The notes: generated from the letters alone by a model not told the origin. Shown: positions 1,450 to 16,817, numbered from the stretch's first letter. The stretch: DNA of 16,817 nucleotides from a virus (IMGVR_UViG_2675903409_000002); one strand, 5' to 3'. Translations and numbers: made by a program.

Positions 1450-1699
1450 NNNNNNNNNNNNNNNNNNNNNNNNNNNNNNNNNNNNNNNNNNNNNNNNNNN
1501 NNNNNNNNNNNNNNNNNNNNNNNNNNNNNNNNNNNNNNNNNNNNNNNNNNNNNNNNNNNNNNNNNNNNNNNNNNNNNNNNNNNNNNNNNNNNNNNNNNNN
1601 NNNNNNNNNNNNNNNNNNNNNNNNNNNNNNNNNNNNNNNNNNNNNNNNNNNNNNNNNNNNNNNNNNNNNNNNNNNNNNNNNNNNNNNNNNNNNNNNNNN
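1450..1699. other. N-run (masked or unknown sequence) covering the L 3' end and L-K intergenic region
   Basis: 250 consecutive n. Confidence 1.
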
Positions 1700-2550: not shown

Positions 2551-5116
2551 CGTCCACCTCCGGAGAACAGGCCACCATCACGCATCTGTGTCTGAATTTC
2601 ATCACGGGCACCCTTGCGGGCCATGTCATACACGGCCTTCATCATCTGTGGACCTGGCAGACCATTCGTACCGTCGTTCTGAATCACCACGTGATTGTTC
2701 TGATTAAAATTAATGCCTTCAGCCCGCCGCATCTGCGCCGGACTTCCGGCACCGCCCACATAACCACCTTCCGCATAGCCGCGCATCAGCCGGTAGAGAT
2801 TCCCCACGCCAATCCGGCTGGTTGCCTCCTTCGTGAAGACAAATTCACCACGGTGAACAATCCCCGCTGGCTCATATTTGCCGCCGGTTCCCGTAAATCC
2901 CCCGGTTGCAAAATGGAATTTCACCGCAGCGGCCTGAATGGCTGTACCACCTGACGCGGATGCGCCGCCACCAACAGCCCCGCCAATGGCGCTGNNNNNN
3001 NNNNNNNNNNNNNNNNNNNNNNNNNNNNNNNNNNNNNNNNNNNNNNNNNNNNNNNNNNNNNNNNNNNNNNNNNNNNNNNNNNNNNNNNNNNNNNNNNNNN
3101 NNNNNNNNNNNNNNNNNNNNNNNNNNNNNNNNNNNNNNNNNNNNNNNNNNNNNNNNNNNNNNNNNNNNNNNNNNNNNNNNNNNNNNNNNNNNNNNNNNNN
3201 NNNNNNNNNNNNNNNNNNNNNNNNNNNNNNNNNNNNNNNNNNNNAGCTGGTCTTCAGCCGCCCAGGTCTTTTTCTGCTCTGACATGACGTTATTCAGCGC
3301 CAGAGGATTATCGCCATACTGTTCCTTCAGGCGCTGTTCCGTGGCTTCCCGCGCTGCCTGCCGGTCAGTCAGCCCCCGGTTTTTCGCATCAATGGCTGCC
3401 CGTTTTGCCCGTTGCTGCTGTGCGAATTTATCCGCCTGCTGCGCCAGCGCATTCAGGTGCTCCTGATACGTAACCTTGTCACCAAGTGCAGCCAGCTGGC
3501 GTTTGTACTCCAGCGTCTCGTCTTTATGCGCCAGCAGGGATTTCTCCTGTGCGGACAGCTGGCGACGTTGTGCCGCCTCCTCCAGTACCGCGAACTGACT
3601 TTCTGCCTTCCACAAATCCCGGCGCTGCTGGCTGATTTTCTCATTCGCTCCGGCATGCTTCTCCAGCGTCCGGAGTTCTGCCTGAAGCGTCAGCAGGGCC
3701 GCATGAGCACTGTCTTCCTGACGATCGCCCGCATACACCTTCACGCCGGACTGTTTCGGCTTTTTCAGCGTCGCTTCATAATCCTTTTTCGCCGCCGCCA
3801 TCAGCGTGTTGTAATCTGCCTGCAGGATTTTTCCGTCTTTCAGTGCCTTGTTCAGTTCTTCCTGACGGGCGGTATATTTCTCCAGCGGCGTCTGCAGCCG
3901 TTCGTAAGCCTTCTGCGCCTCTTCGGTATATTTCAGCCGTGACGCTTCGGTATCGCTCTGCTGCTGCGCATTTTTGTCCTGTTGACGCTGTTGATCTACC
4001 CTCTTTTGGGCTGCATCCCGCTCCAGGCGTTTTTTTTCACGATCATCCCAGTAACGCGCCCGTGCTTCATCGTTAACGAAATAATCATCCTTGCGCAGAT
4101 TCCAGATGTCGTCTGCTTTCTTAAACGCAGCCTCTGCCTTAATCAGCATCTCCTGCGCGGTATCAGGACGACCAATATCCAGCACCGCATCCCACATGGA
4201 TTTGAATGCACGTGCAGTCCTGTCTGCCCAGGTCTCCAGCGTGCCCATGTTCTCTTTCAGGCGGCGGGTCTGGTCATCAAACCCTTTCGTTGCGGCCTCG
4301 TTCGCCGCCTGCAATGCCCCGGCTTCATCGCCGGAACGCTGCAACTGAGCAACATACGCAATCTGCTCCGCCGTCACGTTATGGAACTGGCGTGCCATCG
4401 CCGTCAGCCCCGACGTCGGGTCTGTGGTCAGCTTCCCGAAGGCTTCAGCGACCTTGTCCACCTCCACGCCGGATGCATAGGAGAAACGCGCCACACTCTG
4501 GCTGATGGACGCAATCTGAGCCTCACCGCTTACCCCCGCCTTAACCAGTGCGCTGAGTGACTCGCTGGTCTGGTTAAACGTCAGCCCTGCCGCCTGCCCG
4601 GCTCTGGACAGGACCAGCATACGATCTGCCGTCAGTCCCGCCTGATTACCGGAAAGGACCAGCGTTTTGTTGAAATCGGACAGGGTTGAGTTGNNNNNNN
4701 NNNNNNNNNNNNNNNNNNNNNNNNNNNNNNNNNNNNNNNNNNNNNNNNNNNNNNNNNNNNNNNNNNNNNNNNNNNNNNNNNNNNNNNNNNNNNNNNNNNN
4801 NNNNNNNNNNNNNNNNNNNNNNNNNNNNNNNNNNNNNNNNNNNNNNNNNNNNNNNNNNNNNNNNNNNNNNNNNNNNNNNNNNNNNNNNNNNNNNNNNNNN
4901 NNNNNNNNNNNNNNNNNNNNNNNNNNNNNNNNNNNNNNNNNNNGCTTTCTGTGCAGCCAGCGCCTGTCGGCTCAGCGACTGTTCAACGACTGCCGCTGTT
5001 TTTTTCGCATCACTTTCCGTACCGGAAAAATGACGCCTGACTCTGGCCATCTGCTCGTCAAATCTGGCCGCATCCAGACTCAAATCAACGACCAGATCGC
5101 CTACCGGTTCAGCCAT
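2547..5116 (-). CDS. H: Tail tape-measure protein H; interrupted by two N-runs, and the three visible segments are in three different reading frames
   Basis: N-terminal segment MAEPVGDLVVDLSLDAARFDEQMARVRRHFSGTESDAKK (from 5116); middle segment ...MLVLSRAGQAAGLTFNQ...EQKKTWAAEDQ (4620 down to N-run); C-terminal segment ...AAVKFHFATGGFTGTGGKYEPAGIVHRGEFVF...GGGR ending at TGA 2549-2547 overlapping the M start. Span 2570 nt against 2562 nt expected for 853 aa. Confidence 0.85.
2995..3244. other. N-run inside H (C-terminal third)
   Basis: 250 consecutive n. Confidence 1.
4694..4943. other. N-run inside H (N-terminal part)
   Basis: 250 consecutive n. Confidence 1.
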
Positions 5117-11240: not shown

Positions 11241-14924
<3,684 letters not shown>

Positions 14925-14950
<26 letters not shown>

Positions 14951-15470
14951 TCAGCAACCCCGGTATCAGTTCATCCAGCGCGGCTGCTTTGTTCATGGCT
15001 TTGATGATATCCCGTTTCAGGAAATCAACATGTCGGTTTTCCAGTTCCGGAAAACGCCGCTGCACCGACAGGGGGATCCCGTCGAGAATACTGGCAATTT
15101 CACCTGCGATCCGCGACAGCACGAAAGTACAGAATGCGGTTTCCACCACTTCAGCGGAGTCTCTGGCATTTTTCAGCTCCTGTGCGTCGGCCTGCGCACG
15201 CGTAAGTCGATGGCGTTCGTACTCAATAGTCCCTGGCTGGAGATCTGTCTCGCTGGCCTGCCGCAGTTCTTCAACTTCCCGGCGCAGCTTTTCGTTCTCA
15301 ATTTCAGCATCCCTTTCGGCATACCATCTTATAACGGCGGCAGAGTCATAAAGCACCTCATTACCCTTGCCACCGCCTCGCAGAACGGGCATTCCCTGTT
15401 CCTGCCAGTTCTGAATGGTACGGATACTCGCACCGAAAATGTCAGCCAGCTGCTTTTTGTTGACTTCCAT
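14925..15470 (-). CDS. Nu1: Terminase small subunit Nu1 (181 aa)
   Basis: ORF track 14925..15470; MEVNKKQLADIFGASIRTIQNWQEQGMPVLRGGGKGNEVLYDSAAVIRWYAERD...; ATG at 15470-15468. Confidence 0.96.
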
Positions 15471-15489
15471 TGTTCATTCCACGGACAAA

Positions 15490-15615
15490 AACAGAGAAAG
15501 GAAACGACAGAGGCCAAAAAGCCCGTTTTCAGCACCTGTCGTTTCCTTTCTTTTCAGGGGGTGTTTTAAATAAAAACATTAGGTTACGGCGAAGAAGAAC
15601 GGAAACGCCTTAAAC
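15490..15615 (-). other. cosB: terminase (Nu1) binding elements R1, R2, R3 with an intervening AT-rich IHF-type segment
   Basis: Three copies of the CGTTTCC-type element read on the minus strand: near 15495-15510 (CTGTCGTTTCCTTTCTCTG, R1), 15541-15556 (inverted, GAAAGGAAACGACAG, R2) and 15592-15610 (GGCGTTTCCGTTCTTCTT, R3), at lambda-like spacing upstream of Nu1. Confidence 0.8.
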
Positions 15616-15647
15616 CGGAAAATTGTCATAAATAGCGAAAACCCGCG

Positions 15648-15659
15648 CGCCTTCCGCCC
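15648..15659 (-). other. cosN: 12-nt cohesive-end segment of the joined cos site, variant sequence
   Basis: Minus strand reads ...CAGGTTACG | GGGCGGAAGGCG | CGCGGGTTTTCGCTATTTATGA.... Both flanks match the lambda cos junction from memory; the 12-mer reads GGGCGGAAGGCG where lambda has GGGCGGCGACCT. Confidence 0.75.
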
Positions 15660-15700
15660 CGTAACCTGTCGGATCGCCGGAAAGGACCCGCAAAATGATA
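15660..15700 (-). other. cosQ-containing region on the right-end side of cosN (position approximate)
   Basis: Positional homology to the last ~40 bp of the lambda right end (…CCGGAAAGGACCCG…GATCCGACAGGTTACG); the exact cosQ element is not delimited. Confidence 0.45.
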
Positions 15701-15710
15701 ATAATTATCA
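15696..15710. promoter_or_regulatory. Perfect 7-1-7 inverted repeat TGATAAT-A-ATTATCA (Fur-box-like candidate operator)
   Basis: Read directly: 15696-15702 TGATAAT, 15703 A, 15704-15710 ATTATCA, exact reverse complements. About 150 bp upstream of the plus-strand ORF starting at 15859. Confidence 0.3.
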
Positions 15711-15858
15711 TCTACATGTCACAACGTGCATCTACGCCATCAAACCACGTCAAATAATCAATTATGACGCAGGTATCGTATTAATTGATCTGCATCAACT
15801 TAACGTAAAAACAACTTCAGACAATACAAATCAGCGACACTGAATACAGGGCAACCTC

Positions 15859-16092
15859 ATGTCAACGAAGAACAGAACCCGCAGAACAACAACCCGCAAC
15901 ATCCGCTTTCCTAACCAAATGATTGAACAAATTAACATCGCTCTTGTTCAAAAAGGGTCCGGGAATTTCTCAGCCTGGGTCATTGAAGCCTGCCGCCGGA
16001 GACTGTGCTCAGAAAAAAGAGTTTCGCCTGAAGCAAACAAAGAAAAGAGTGACATTACTGAATTGCTCAGAAAACAGGTTAGACCAGATTGA
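15859..16092 (+). CDS. Small hypothetical protein, YbcW-like / lambda right-end ORF homologue (77 aa) with a divergent C-terminus
   Basis: ORF track 15859..16092; MSTKNRTRRTTTRNIRFPNQMIEQINIALVQKGSGNFSAWVIEACRRR.... The first ~50 residues match the small ORF I recall next to cos in lambda and DLP12 (ybcW); the tail LCSEKRVSPEANKEKSDITELLRKQVRPD differs. Weak SD (aggg). Confidence 0.6.
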   Translation: MSTKNRTRRTTTRNIRFPNQMIEQINIALVQKGSGNFSAWVIEACRRRLCSEKRVSPEANKEKSDITELLRKQVRPD

Positions 16093-16149
16093 AGCAATTT
16101 AGATAATCGTGCAGACTACGCCCCCTCATATCACATGGAAGGTACTACA

Positions 16150-16560
16150 ATGGCTCAGGTTGCCATTTTTAAACAAATATTCGATAAAGTGCGAAATAAT
16201 TTAAACTATCACTGGTTTTATTCTGAACTAAAACGTCACAATGTCTCACATTACATTTACTATTTAGCCACAGAGAATATTCATCTTGTTCTTGAAAACG
16301 ATAATACGGTTTTAATAAAAGGACAGGGTAAGGTTGTAAATGTAAGATTTTCAAAAAATAAATGCCTTATAGAAGCCACCTTAAAAGGATTCAAATCAGG
16401 AGAGTTATCATTTTACGAATACAGGAAAAATCTTGCTACAGCAGGGGTTTTCAGATGGATTACAAATATCCACGAAAACAAAAGGTATTACTATACCTTT
16501 GATAATTCATTACTCTTTACTGAGAACATACAGAACACTACACAAATATTTCCGCACTAA
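16150..16560 (+). CDS. DUF1398-family protein, YbcV/YdfO-like (136 aa)
   Basis: ORF track 16135..16560; I prefer the second ATG at 16150 because GGAAGG lies 7 nt upstream. [67 protein letters not shown]...[39 protein letters not shown] resembles E. coli prophage proteins YbcV/YdfO from memory. Visibly AT-rich against the GC-rich late genes. Confidence 0.65.
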
Positions 16561-16568
16561 ATCATAAC

Positions 16569-16597
16569 GTCCGGTTTCTTCCGTGCCAGAACCGGAC
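16569..16597 (+). terminator. Hairpin just downstream of the YbcV-like stop (8-bp stem gtccggtt/aaccggac, 13-nt loop); weak terminator candidate
   Basis: Inverted repeat at 16569-16576 and 16590-16597, read directly. No U-tract follows on the plus strand, so intrinsic-terminator function is doubtful. Confidence 0.2.
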
Positions 16598-16605
16598 TCG
16601 CTGGC

Positions 16606-16815
16606 ATGATGAAATATGTGTACCCGGTAACCCCGGTGTGCATCGTTTTTGATTATTCCCGCACACTCGCGCAGAAGGAGTTCCCCGTCGGGCTACGGTC
16701 TCTGTTAATACGGGAATACGGCGACGATTGGATTTGCCCCTATATTTCCAGACATCTGTTATCACTTAACCCATTACAAGCCCGCTGCCGCAGATATTCC
16801 CGTGGCGAGCGATAA
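16606..16815 (+). CDS. Hypothetical small protein (69 aa), unrecognised; may be non-coding
   Basis: ORF track 16606..16815; complete ATG to TAA (16813-16815). MMKYVYPVTPVCIVFDYSRTLAQKEFPVGLRSLLIREYGDDWICPYISRHLLSLNPLQARCRRYSRGER. No clear SD; Cys/Arg-rich. All three minus-strand frames here hit stops within ~80 nt of the window end. Confidence 0.25.
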   Translation: MMKYVYPVTPVCIVFDYSRTLAQKEFPVGLRSLLIREYGDDWICPYISRHLLSLNPLQARCRRYSRGER

Positions 16816-16817
16816 CC

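What the first reader, a model, noticed from the sequence alone, without database searches (positions are those of the whole stretch)
15859..16560. Right-end accessory cluster switches from lambda-type to DLP12/Qin-type content about 330 bp right of cos
The sequence tracks the lambda right end from cos to about 15990, then diverges. The small cos-proximal ORF keeps a lambda-like N-terminus but gets a new C-terminus, and the next gene is an AT-rich YbcV/YdfO-like DUF1398 protein rather than what lambda carries there. These genes run opposite to the late operon, as lambda bor does, which suggests lysogen-expressed cargo. The breakpoint inside a coding sequence is a clean example of modular recombination.
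Basis: partly seen in the sequence, partly recalled or inferred. Interest (0 to 1): 0.45.

Follow-up and report, generated by a model that had tools for sequence, protein, structure and literature searches.

The report
Qin-type accessory genes beside cos
Next to the packaging site of this lambda-like prophage sit two small accessory genes in the arrangement already known from the E. coli K-12 Qin prophage and phage ev099, differing from lambda mainly by lacking lambda's small gene p79, so this is ordinary, well-documented phage mosaicism.

Summary
The sequence features are real, but the comparison with lambda was partly wrong. Window 15859-16092 encodes a 77-aa DUF3950 (YlcI/YnfO) protein. Window 16150-16560 encodes a 136-aa DUF1398 (YdfO/YbcV) protein. 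Both lie on the strand opposite Nu1/A, in AT-rich DNA.

Lambda carries both genes in the same order and orientation: an unannotated 64-aa DUF3950 ORF, and lambdap78, which is DUF1398. The real difference is a cassette. Lambda and DLP12 have 613 bp, holding the opposite-strand gene lambdap79/ybcW and a different DUF3950 tail, where the window has 54 bp (16022-16075). DLP12 is therefore lambda-type; only Qin matches the window.

High identity to lambda (95%) runs to 16004-16021, not 15990. It resumes at 16076 at 83%. The window is colinear with Qin (89.5%), with phage ev099 (98.8%) and with many E. coli prophages (up to 99.9%).

Both layouts are common: the Qin-type junction occurs in 2175 of 5426 complete E. 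coli genomes, ybcW in 1938. Phage PhiR46_1 lacks both genes.

Published work shows lambda exchanges this region with DLP12 by homologous recombination. A 2026 preprint reports that lambda escapes the Vulcan defence by losing p79, likely through recombination with Qin.

Verdict: already known; low interest.

The parts
14925..15470 (-). Nu1 (small terminase) gene. It marks the start of the late/packaging operon, which runs leftward in the window.
   Evidence: ORF list. The homologous ORFs are annotated as terminase subunit Nu1 in PhiR49_1 and as nohD/nohA in K-12.
15648..15659 (.). The 12-nt cohesive-end sequence of cosN, in a variant form. It reads CGCCTTCCGCCC, against AGGTCGCCGCCC in lambda (from memory; the lambda locus fetched ends at cos), DLP12, Qin, HK630 and PhiR49_1.
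   Evidence: Alignments. The variant is also present in at least 77 complete E. coli genomes, 14 IMG/VR contigs and phages PhiR46_1 and YDC107_1.
15660..15858 (.). Conserved spacer from the lambda right end to the DUF3950 start. It includes the cosQ-like AGGACCC at 15683-15689.
   Evidence: 90-100% identical to lambda, DLP12 and Qin in 40-bp bins. The cosQ position is taken from my memory of lambda (48473-48479). No convincing sigma-70 promoter was found.
15859..16092 (+). ynfO-type DUF3950 (YlcI/YnfO family) gene, 77 aa. Codons 1-49 form the conserved core; from about codon 50-55 onward is the Qin-type tail.
   Evidence: Pfam PF13132 E 2e-20; NCBIfam NF041551; phrog_949. It is 97.4% identical to K-12 YnfO, and matches YlcI and lambda at 52/54 residues before the tail changes. 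Coding signature: 29 of 46 variable sites fall at codon position 3.
16022..16075 (.). 54-bp Qin-type segment standing where lambda and DLP12 have 613 bp (lambda 47528-48140) carrying lambdap79/ybcW.
   Evidence: blastn and alignments. There is no significant similarity to lambda's 613 bp: 23 of 300 shuffles reach the observed score. The segment is 95-100% identical to Qin.
16073..16107 (+). The point where homology to lambda/DLP12 resumes. It holds a GGT-N3-ACC palindrome (16073-16089) equivalent to the reported PdhR site between ybcV and ybcW. It also holds a candidate promoter, TAGACC-16 nt-GATAAT (16080-16107).
   Evidence: Promoter scans. Five-way comparison of the sequence upstream of DUF1398. 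The PdhR site AtcTGGTctgACCtcTT is reported in PMC7660256. The promoter is only a 9/12 consensus match and is not validated.
16150..16560 (+). DUF1398 gene (YdfO/YbcV/lambda p78 family), 136 aa, with a GGAAGG ribosome-binding site at 16137-16142.
   Evidence: Pfam PF07166 E 3.3e-43; PDB 2HH8 E 2.9e-67; phrog_413. It is 100% identical to the ev099, PhiR49_1, Kati and Chlobot proteins. The start at 16150 matches the K-12 annotations of 136 aa.
16568..16598 (+). Hairpin downstream of the DUF1398 gene (stem 16568-16577 pairing with 16589-16598). It is not a convincing intrinsic terminator.
   Evidence: The 61-nt stretch 16555-16615 that contains it folds at -15.2 kcal/mol, z -1.7 against shuffles, and no U tract follows the hairpin.
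16606..16728 (+). 5' part of a small hypothetical ORF (homologue of ev099 gp70 and the PhiR46_1 58-aa ORF), cut by IS2. It overlaps a degenerate copy of the lambda/HK630 bor promoter region (16696-16722).
16729..16817 (-). Right end of an IS2 element. It explains why similarity to lambda and ev099 stops at 16728.
   Evidence: 100% identity over 89 bp to K-12 IS2A positions 1331-1243.

Best explanation
This is one allele of a known cassette polymorphism in the accessory region just across cos from the terminase genes of lambda-like phages.

The window carries the short, Qin-type allele: cos, then a 77-aa YnfO-type DUF3950 gene, 57 bp, then a DUF1398 gene. Lambda and DLP12 carry the long allele. 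In that allele the DUF3950 gene has another C-terminal tail, and 613 bp with the opposite-strand gene lambdap79/ybcW separate it from the DUF1398 gene.

The alleles are exchanged by homologous recombination in the conserved flanks:
- On one side lies the roughly 345-bp stretch from cos to codon 49 of DUF3950.
- On the other side lies the sequence from the conserved AGACCAGATTGA block, about 75 bp upstream of DUF1398, through the DUF1398 gene.

The exchange itself is inferred from the sequence pattern. Experiments on lambda with K-12 cryptic prophages support it.

Both genes are dispensable cargo and lie antisense to the late transcript. I infer, without having shown it, that they are expressed from their own promoters in the lysogen. 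I also infer that DUF3950 is a small Arc/Mnt-like DNA-binding protein. The biochemical role of DUF1398 remains unknown.
For: - Family assignments are solid.
- Layouts come from K-12 annotation: DLP12 has the lambda layout and Qin has the window layout.
- Segment identities: Qin is colinear over 15471-16598 at 89.5%. Lambda and DLP12 match in two pieces with a 54-versus-613 bp replacement. ev099 matches at 98.8%.
- The window's 54 bp have no counterpart in lambda's 613 bp.
- The DUF3950 core is nearly invariant, while at least 8 different tails follow codon about 50. The joint is therefore recurrent.
- DUF3950 is a real coding gene under purifying selection.
- What lies beyond DUF3950 varies: DUF1398 directly, ybcW plus DUF1398 plus bor, a TonB_C protein, or nothing.
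- PhiR46_1 lacks window 15711-16628 altogether.
- Both layouts are frequent: 2175 and 1938 of 5426 genomes.
- Lambda recombines with DLP12 across this region, using a ybcV::Kan marker, and half of the junctions lie next to cos (PMC3945230).
- Lambda-vir escapers of the Vulcan defence all deleted lambdap79, probably by recombination with Qin (bioRxiv 10.64898/2026.09.04.749371).
- Homologues are expressed in K-12: ydfO is stress-induced (PMC4077768). ybcV and ybcW fall about 10-fold in a pdhR mutant (PMC7660256). ybcW and ylcI transcripts overlap convergently (PMC12288877).
Against: - The direction of change cannot be decided from these data. It could be an insertion of ybcW in the lambda/DLP12 lineage or a replacement in the Qin lineage.
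- Promoter evidence is weak. The scan finds no more promoter-like sites than in shuffled sequence (4 against 3.2 expected). No candidate precedes DUF3950. The -35 to -10 spacing of the DUF1398 candidate is 16 nt here but 19 nt in lambda, DLP12 and L036.
- No clear terminator follows DUF1398.
- The RHH (ribbon-helix-helix) assignment is not statistically supported: hhalign probability 3% against Arc, no Pfam RHH hit, no Foldseek hit.
- Lysogen expression was not measured for this prophage.
Confidence: 0.85

Rival explanations
1. The window arose from a lambda-type ancestor by a simple internal deletion of the lambdap79/ybcW segment, rather than by exchange of a different allele.
For: A short direct repeat, GCTCAGAAAA, occurs at 16007-16016 and 16064-16073 and flanks most of the 54-bp segment (read). 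Lambda keeps TCAGAAAAGAGAG at the left joint.
Against: The 54 bp between the joints have no counterpart in lambda's 613 bp. A deletion alone therefore cannot produce them. The flanking DUF1398 gene is only 83% identical in nucleotides and 76% in amino acids to lambda's. The cos side is 95% identical, so the segments have different histories.
Confidence: 0.05
2. The Qin-type layout is ancestral, and lambda/DLP12 gained ybcW/p79 as an inserted late-strand moron that also overwrote the DUF3950 tail. On this reading the window simply never had p79.
For: DUF3950 sits directly next to DUF1398 with three different DUF3950 tails or spacers: the window/Qin type, ev099, and the P0100 type with a 101-bp gap. 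ybcW is the only gene of the region on the late strand.
Against: No outgroup or phylogeny was built. The other tails with no DUF1398 at all show that the slot turns over in many ways. This rival concerns polarity only and is compatible with the recombination mechanism.
Confidence: 0.35
3. DUF3950 and DUF1398 form an obligate two-gene system, for example an RHH antitoxin or regulator with a toxin or effector. The swap would then move a functional pair.
For: A small upstream gene with an RHH-like motif is followed 57 bp later by a larger gene on the same strand. 12 of 14 IMG/VR contigs with the same cos variant keep exactly this spacing.
Against: The two genes occur apart:
- DUF1398 occurs without DUF3950 next to bluR (ycgX), between Q and holin, and in non-phage contexts.
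- DUF3950 occurs without DUF1398.
- In lambda and DLP12 the two are separated by 613 bp and an opposite-strand gene.

There is no PADLOC hit and no toxin-family hit. ybcV can be knocked out (Keio strain used in PMC3945230).
Confidence: 0.07
4. The junction is an assembly or database artefact.
For: The window contains four masked N runs and ends in an IS element.
Against: The same junction occurs at 95% identity or more in 2175 complete E. coli genomes and in independently sequenced phages.
Confidence: 0.01

Closest known systems
Qin cryptic prophage of E. coli K-12: nohA-cos-ynfO-ydfO
   Same: Gene order, orientation, gene lengths (234 and 411 bp) and the 57-bp spacer are identical. The two are colinear at 89.5% over 1128 bp. 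YnfO is 97.4% identical.
   Different: The DUF1398 allele is only 75.6% identical to YdfO, and its centre (16280-16440) has diverged. Similarity to Qin ends at 16598, where Qin continues into gnsB. The cosN cohesive-end sequence differs.
Phage ev099 (Radostvirus ev099), PhiR49_1, Kati and Chlobot
   Same: 97.7-98.8% nucleotide identity from cos to 16728. The DUF1398 protein is 100% identical. The layout is the same.
   Different: The window has an IS2 inserted at 16728/16729. PhiR49_1 has the canonical lambda cosN while the window has the variant.
Lambda right end (bor - lambdap78 - lambdap79 - unannotated DUF3950 ORF - cos) and DLP12 (borD-ybcV-ybcW-ylcI-cos-nohD)
   Same: The same two protein families occur in the same order and orientation relative to cos. 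Identity is 95% from cos to codon about 50 of DUF3950. It is 83% from about 75 bp upstream of DUF1398 to about 170 bp past it.
   Different: Lambda and DLP12 have 613 bp carrying lambdap79/ybcW where the window has 54 bp. Their DUF3950 is 64 aa with a different tail. bor follows in lambda, whereas the window lineage has other ORFs there.
Morons of lambdoid phages (Juhala, Hendrix and colleagues; e.g. lambda bor and lom)
   Same: Dispensable, AT-rich DNA lying antisense to the late operon at a module boundary, and absent from a close relative.
   Different: An autonomous promoter and terminator, and expression from the prophage, were not demonstrated here.

Membership tests
DUF1398 (PF07166; YdfO/YbcV/YcgX/lambda p78) | Pfam model match above the gathering score, over the full length of the model | tested here: met
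   147 bits against a cut-off of 22; profile positions 1-119 of 119. The lambda p78 control scores 157 bits.
DUF1398 (PF07166; YdfO/YbcV/YcgX/lambda p78) | Sequence relationship to the solved YdfO structure (PDB 2HH8) | tested here: met
   E 2.9e-67 over residues 1-135. A profile of distant members finds only 2HH8.
DUF1398 (PF07166; YdfO/YbcV/YcgX/lambda p78) | Same three-dimensional fold, shown by a confident model | tested here: inconclusive
DUF3950 / YlcI-YnfO family (PF13132, NF041551) | Model matches above the curated cut-offs | tested here: met
   Pfam 72.8 bits against 25. NCBIfam 35.2 bits against 30. phrog_949 E 6e-33.
DUF3950 / YlcI-YnfO family (PF13132, NF041551) | Real protein-coding gene, placed as the first gene across cos and divergent from Nu1 | tested here: met
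   Variation is biased to the third codon position, and synonymous changes outnumber non-synonymous ones. The position is the same in lambda, DLP12, Qin, ev099 and four further contigs.
Ribbon-helix-helix (Arc/MetJ/CopG) DNA-binding proteins | Significant sequence or profile similarity to an RHH family | tested here: not met
   hhalign against Arc aligns TRNIRFPNQMIEQINIALVQKG with QFNLRWPREVLDLVRKVAEENG in the expected register. The probability is only 3%. Mnt gives 0.3% and CopG 0.1%. No RHH Pfam family is found at E up to 10 for 18 members.
Ribbon-helix-helix (Arc/MetJ/CopG) DNA-binding proteins | Strand-helix-helix fold forming a dimer | tested here: inconclusive
   The monomer model (pLDDT 67.8) has helices at 19-32 and 34-54, as an RHH would, but no strand. 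Foldseek against the PDB finds nothing. A dimer prediction was not possible with these tools.
Moron (autonomous accessory transcription unit in a lambdoid phage) | Dispensable insert with deviant base composition, absent from close relatives | tested here: met
   GC 0.30-0.35 against 0.52-0.58. PhiR46_1 lacks 15711-16628.
Moron (autonomous accessory transcription unit in a lambdoid phage) | Own promoter and terminator | tested here: inconclusive
   There is one 9/12 promoter-like site at 16080-16107 and none before DUF3950. The count is no higher than in shuffled sequence. The hairpin has z -1.7 and no U tract.
Moron (autonomous accessory transcription unit in a lambdoid phage) | Expressed from the repressed prophage | not testable with these tools
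   Only indirect evidence exists: the K-12 homologues ydfO, ybcV and ylcI are transcribed.
Type II toxin-antitoxin pair | Obligate co-occurrence of the two genes as one operon | tested here: not met
   Each gene is found without the other, and the two are split by an opposite-strand gene in lambda and DLP12.
IS2 (IS3 family) | Terminal sequence identical to a reference IS2 end | tested here: met
   Window 16729-16817 equals IS2A positions 1331-1243, 89 of 89 bases.

The most novel reading that the evidence does not exclude
The slot between cos and the lysis genes may be a defence/counter-defence hot spot.
- The presence or absence of lambdap79/ybcW (36% against 40% of complete E. coli genomes) could be maintained by host systems such as Vulcan that sense p79. 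This prophage lineage would then be intrinsically insensitive.
- The always cos-adjacent DUF3950 gene, unannotated in the lambda reference, could encode an Arc/Mnt-like repressor that controls lysogen expression of whatever cargo sits in the slot.
Probability: 0.15. Interest if true: 0.5.

Novelty: already known. Interest (0 to 1): 0.17.

Why it matters
The finding matters little in itself. The arrangement is that of K-12 Qin and of sequenced phages such as ev099, and it occurs in about 40% of complete E. coli genomes. Exchange of this region between lambda and cryptic prophages has been shown experimentally.

It has some practical value as a corrected map of the lambda right end:
- Lambda has an unannotated DUF3950 gene.
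- lambdap78 is a DUF1398 protein whose annotated start is probably 41 codons too early.
- The only gene that distinguishes the lambda/DLP12 layout from the Qin layout is lambdap79/ybcW. A 2026 preprint reports that gene as the trigger of the Vulcan NADase defence.

Tried and rejected
- **Rfam** on 15400-16817 gave only sub-threshold miRNA-family matches on the hairpin at about 15490-15556, between the Nu1 start and cosN. Rejected.
- **PADLOC** gave no defence-system match. Csx23 at E 0.023 is noise.
- **RHH test for DUF3950.** hhalign against Arc, CopG and Mnt, a Pfam scan of 18 members at E up to 10, a PDB sequence and profile search, and Foldseek on the AlphaFold2 model were all non-significant. 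The RHH idea rests only on the N-x-R-aromatic-P and G-x-x-x-x-S motif register and on helix positions.
- **Toxin-antitoxin pair.** Rejected because each gene occurs without the other.
- **Stop-codon readthrough fusion.** The DUF3950 TGA and the DUF1398 ATG are in the same frame, and the databases hold 'fused' 233-aa proteins (P0134). In those proteins the TGA is read as W, so they are gene-calling artefacts. The frame relation is also not conserved: the offset in L036 is 296 nt.
- **Simple deletion of p79.** Rejected.
- **Promoter upstream of DUF3950.** No convincing candidate.
- **Intrinsic terminator after DUF1398.** Not supported.
- **bor promoter.** The stretch homologous to the HK630 promoter is degenerate here.
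- **Papers not held.** Casjens & Hendrix 2015 and Liu et al. 2013 (lambda ribosome profiling) are not in the library. Lysogen translation of the lambda homologues could not be checked.

Full report
**What is in the window**

The window is a lambda-like packaging and head region read in reverse. Terminase A (13022-14950) and Nu1 (14925-15470) are on the minus strand. Lambda's last base, 48502, aligns with window 15660, so the 12-nt cohesive end occupies 15648-15659.

To the right of cos, on the plus strand and therefore antisense to the late operon, lie two ORFs.
- 15859-16092 encodes 77 aa and matches Pfam DUF3950 (E 2e-20), NCBIfam YlcI_YnfO_N and phrog_949.
- 16150-16560 encodes 136 aa. An upstream ATG at 16135 would give 141 aa. 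It matches Pfam DUF1398 (E 3.3e-43), phrog_413 and the NMR structure of E. coli YdfO, PDB 2HH8 (E 2.9e-67).

The GGAAGG ribosome-binding site at 16137-16142, and the 136-aa annotations of ydfO and ybcV in K-12, favour the start at 16150. The DUF1398 gene is AT-rich: GC 0.30-0.35, against 0.52-0.58 in the terminase genes.

The window ends in an IS2 element. Bases 16729-16817 are 89/89 identical to the right end of K-12 IS2A. That insertion is the only reason similarity to lambda and to phage ev099 stops at 16728.

**Checking the comparison with lambda**

blastn against lambda gives two pieces:
- window 15660-16021 = lambda 48502-48141, at 95.0%;
- window 16076-16729 = lambda 47527-46875, at 82.6%.

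Between the two pieces the window has 54 bp and lambda has 613 bp. The alignment shows clean identity up to 16004, four mismatches, 12 of 13 matches at 16009-16021, and then nothing. A local alignment of the window's segment against lambda's 613 bp scores no better than shuffled sequence: 23 of 300 shuffles reach the observed score.

The break is therefore real but lies 15-30 bp to the right of the stated 15990. It falls in codons 50-55 of the DUF3950 ORF.

Lambda is not empty to the right of the break. The lambda-identical right end of phage O276 is annotated, in window orientation, as follows:
- a YlcI/YnfO family protein of 64 aa;
- lambda p79 on the opposite strand;
- lambda p78;
- Bor.

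Lambda p78 is itself a DUF1398 protein (Pfam E 2.2e-46) and is 76.3% identical to the window protein. The 64-aa DUF3950 ORF is not annotated in J02459 or NC_001416.

**DLP12 versus Qin**

K-12 annotation settles which prophage the window resembles.
- DLP12 reads borD-ybcV-ybcW-ylcI-(cos)-nohD. That is lambda's layout. Lambda p78 and YbcV are 98.5% identical, and DLP12 gives the same two-piece match to the window as lambda does.
- Qin reads nohA-(cos)-ynfO (77 aa)-57 bp-ydfO (136 aa). It is colinear with window 15471-16598 at 89.5% with two gaps.

In 40-bp bins all three references are 90-100% identical to the window from 15680 to about 16000. From 16000 to 16120 only Qin matches (95-100%, against 55-75% for the other two).

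The DUF1398 gene is a separate allele whose centre (16280-16440) is 58-80% identical to all three. Downstream of the gene, 16600-16729 resembles lambda and DLP12 (68-82%) and not Qin. At protein level the window's DUF1398 is 75.6% identical to YdfO, 77.8% to YbcV and 76.3% to lambda p78.

'Qin-type' is therefore correct for the layout and the DUF3950 tail. 'DLP12-type' is not correct. The DUF1398 allele belongs to neither.

**How common it is**

The same region is 97.7-98.8% identical in phages ev099 (genus Radostvirus), PhiR49_1, Kati and Chlobot, whose DUF1398 protein is 100% identical. It is up to 99.9% identical in many E. coli chromosomes.

A probe specific for the Qin-type joint (16006-16085) hits 2175 of 5426 complete E. 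coli genomes. The ybcW/lambdap79 gene hits 1938. Both layouts are thus widespread.

A third state exists. Phage PhiR46_1 matches the window up to 15710 and again from 16629. It lacks both genes.

**The joint is recurrent**

Across DUF3950 homologues, residues 1-49 are nearly invariant, while at least eight unrelated tails follow. The core is genuinely coding. Of 46 variable nucleotide sites among 12 distinct copies of the core (11 of them differing from the window), 29 are at codon position 3. The more diverged copies show 13-15 synonymous against 3-5 non-synonymous codon changes.

In every context examined, DUF3950 is the first gene across cos, divergent from Nu1. What follows it varies: DUF1398, ybcW plus DUF1398 plus bor, a TonB_C-domain gene, or nothing before Rz1.

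DUF1398 in turn occurs without DUF3950. It is found next to bluR (K-12 ycgX), between the Q antiterminator and the holin gene of another prophage, and in non-phage surroundings. The two genes are therefore not an obligate pair, which argues against a toxin-antitoxin reading.

DUF1398 is a small family. Only 189 clusters at 50% identity, out of 1.84 billion representatives, reach E of 0.001 or better.

**Mechanism**

The right-hand joint lies exactly where a block conserved in all layouts begins. That block runs from AGACCAGATTGA through a -10-like GATAAT or TATCAT and a conserved leader with the ribosome-binding site.

In DLP12 this block contains the site reported to bind PdhR, AtcTGGTctgACCtcTT. 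ybcV and ybcW mRNA fall about 10-fold in a pdhR mutant (PMC7660256). The window keeps the GGT-N3-ACC core at 16073-16089, overlapping a 9/12 promoter-like match at 16080-16107.

This suggests that the DUF1398 gene carries its own regulatory region and that the cassette boundary sits just upstream of it. The promoter evidence is weak: the number of sites is no higher than in shuffles, and the spacer length varies between 16 and 19 nt. No promoter candidate precedes DUF3950, and no convincing terminator follows DUF1398.

Exchange by homologous recombination in the flanks is inferred here from the identity pattern. It has direct experimental precedent.
- De Paepe et al. found 98% identity between lambda and DLP12 over 3353 bp spanning cos.
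- They recovered lambda recombinants carrying a ybcV::Kan marker about 100-fold more often than with Qin or Rac markers.
- They placed half of the junctions next to cos (PMC3945230).
- A 2026 preprint reports that all seven lambda-vir escapers of the NADase defence system Vulcan had deleted lambdap79, 'likely' by recombination with Qin. It also reports that p79 co-expressed with Vulcan is toxic.

The product of that event is exactly the layout seen in this window.

**Function of the two proteins**

Function remains open. In the papers I could search, YdfO is linked to stress: ydfO is induced by an ionic liquid, and its overexpression reportedly raises oxidative-stress resistance (PMC4077768). 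lambdap78 is non-essential by CRISPRi (PMC10695390).

DUF3950 carries a motif in register with the Arc and Mnt repressors: N-I-R-F-P against N-L-R-W-P and N-F-R-M-P, followed by a helix, a glycine turn and a second helix. The AlphaFold2 monomer has helices at the expected places. Every statistical test failed, however, so this is a lead, not a finding.

The 'head protein' label that PHROGs and RefSeq give to DUF1398 has no support in anything I found. It also sits oddly with a gene that viable phages lack.

**Verdict**

The region is a known, common allele of a known mosaic hot spot. Novelty: already known. Interest is low, with a modest topical link to p79-sensing defence.

Noticed in passing
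window 15648-15659: The 12-nt cohesive-end sequence differs at 5 positions from the canonical form found in DLP12, Qin, HK630 and even the 98.6%-identical PhiR49_1, and, from my memory of lambda's left end, in lambda itself. It reads CGCCTTCCGCCC against AGGTCGCCGCCC; in lambda orientation, GGGCGGAAGGCG against GGGCGGCGACCT. The variant recurs in at least 77 complete E. coli genomes, 14 IMG/VR contigs and the phage records PhiR46_1 and YDC107_1, so it is a lineage and not a lesion. I did not examine whether the terminase co-varies with it.
   Followed up: partly
window 16729-16817: An IS2 right end is inserted 168 bp downstream of the DUF1398 gene. It cuts a small hypothetical ORF (16606-) and sits 6 bp after the stretch homologous to the lambda/HK630 bor promoter. 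The prophage may therefore be decaying.
   Followed up: yes
window 1450-1699, 2995-3244, 4694-4943, 13480-13730: Four masked N runs of 250-251 bases sit inside the structural and terminase genes. The one in terminase A shows up as a run of X in the translation.
   Followed up: no
L001/L038 (lambda 48110-48304, minus strand): The lambda reference records J02459 and NC_001416 do not annotate the 64-aa DUF3950 (YlcI/YnfO) ORF next to cos, although it is conserved and shows a coding signature. lambdap78 is annotated as 177 aa, but the DUF1398 domain and the K-12 homologues indicate a 136-aa protein starting 41 codons later.
   Followed up: partly
L009:1-33 (NC_049953.1, phage ev099 left end): The deposited ev099 genome begins with what I recognise as a Nextera adapter (TCGTCGGCAGCGTCAGATGTGTATAAGAGACAG) in place of the true left cohesive end. 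Its cosN therefore cannot be read from that record.
   Followed up: no
protein hits: Hundreds of error-laden contigs of about 3.5 kb from ENA encode lambda-type DUF3950 and DUF1398 proteins. There are also 'Staphylococcus aureus', 'Klebsiella' and spider entries. These look like carry-over of the 3.6-kb lambda right-end control DNA used in nanopore sequencing (my inference). They inflate cluster counts for these families.
   Followed up: no
window 16280-16440 (within the DUF1398 gene): The DUF1398 gene is itself mosaic. Its centre ([40 protein letters not shown]) is shared with some alleles (P0125), whose ends differ. Other alleles (P0123) share the window's ends but have another centre.
   Followed up: partly
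L039 (PhiR46_1) 1587-1669 against window 15711-16628: PhiR46_1 joins cos almost directly to the small ORF that lies downstream of DUF1398 in the window. This is a natural 'empty' state of the accessory slot.
   Followed up: yes
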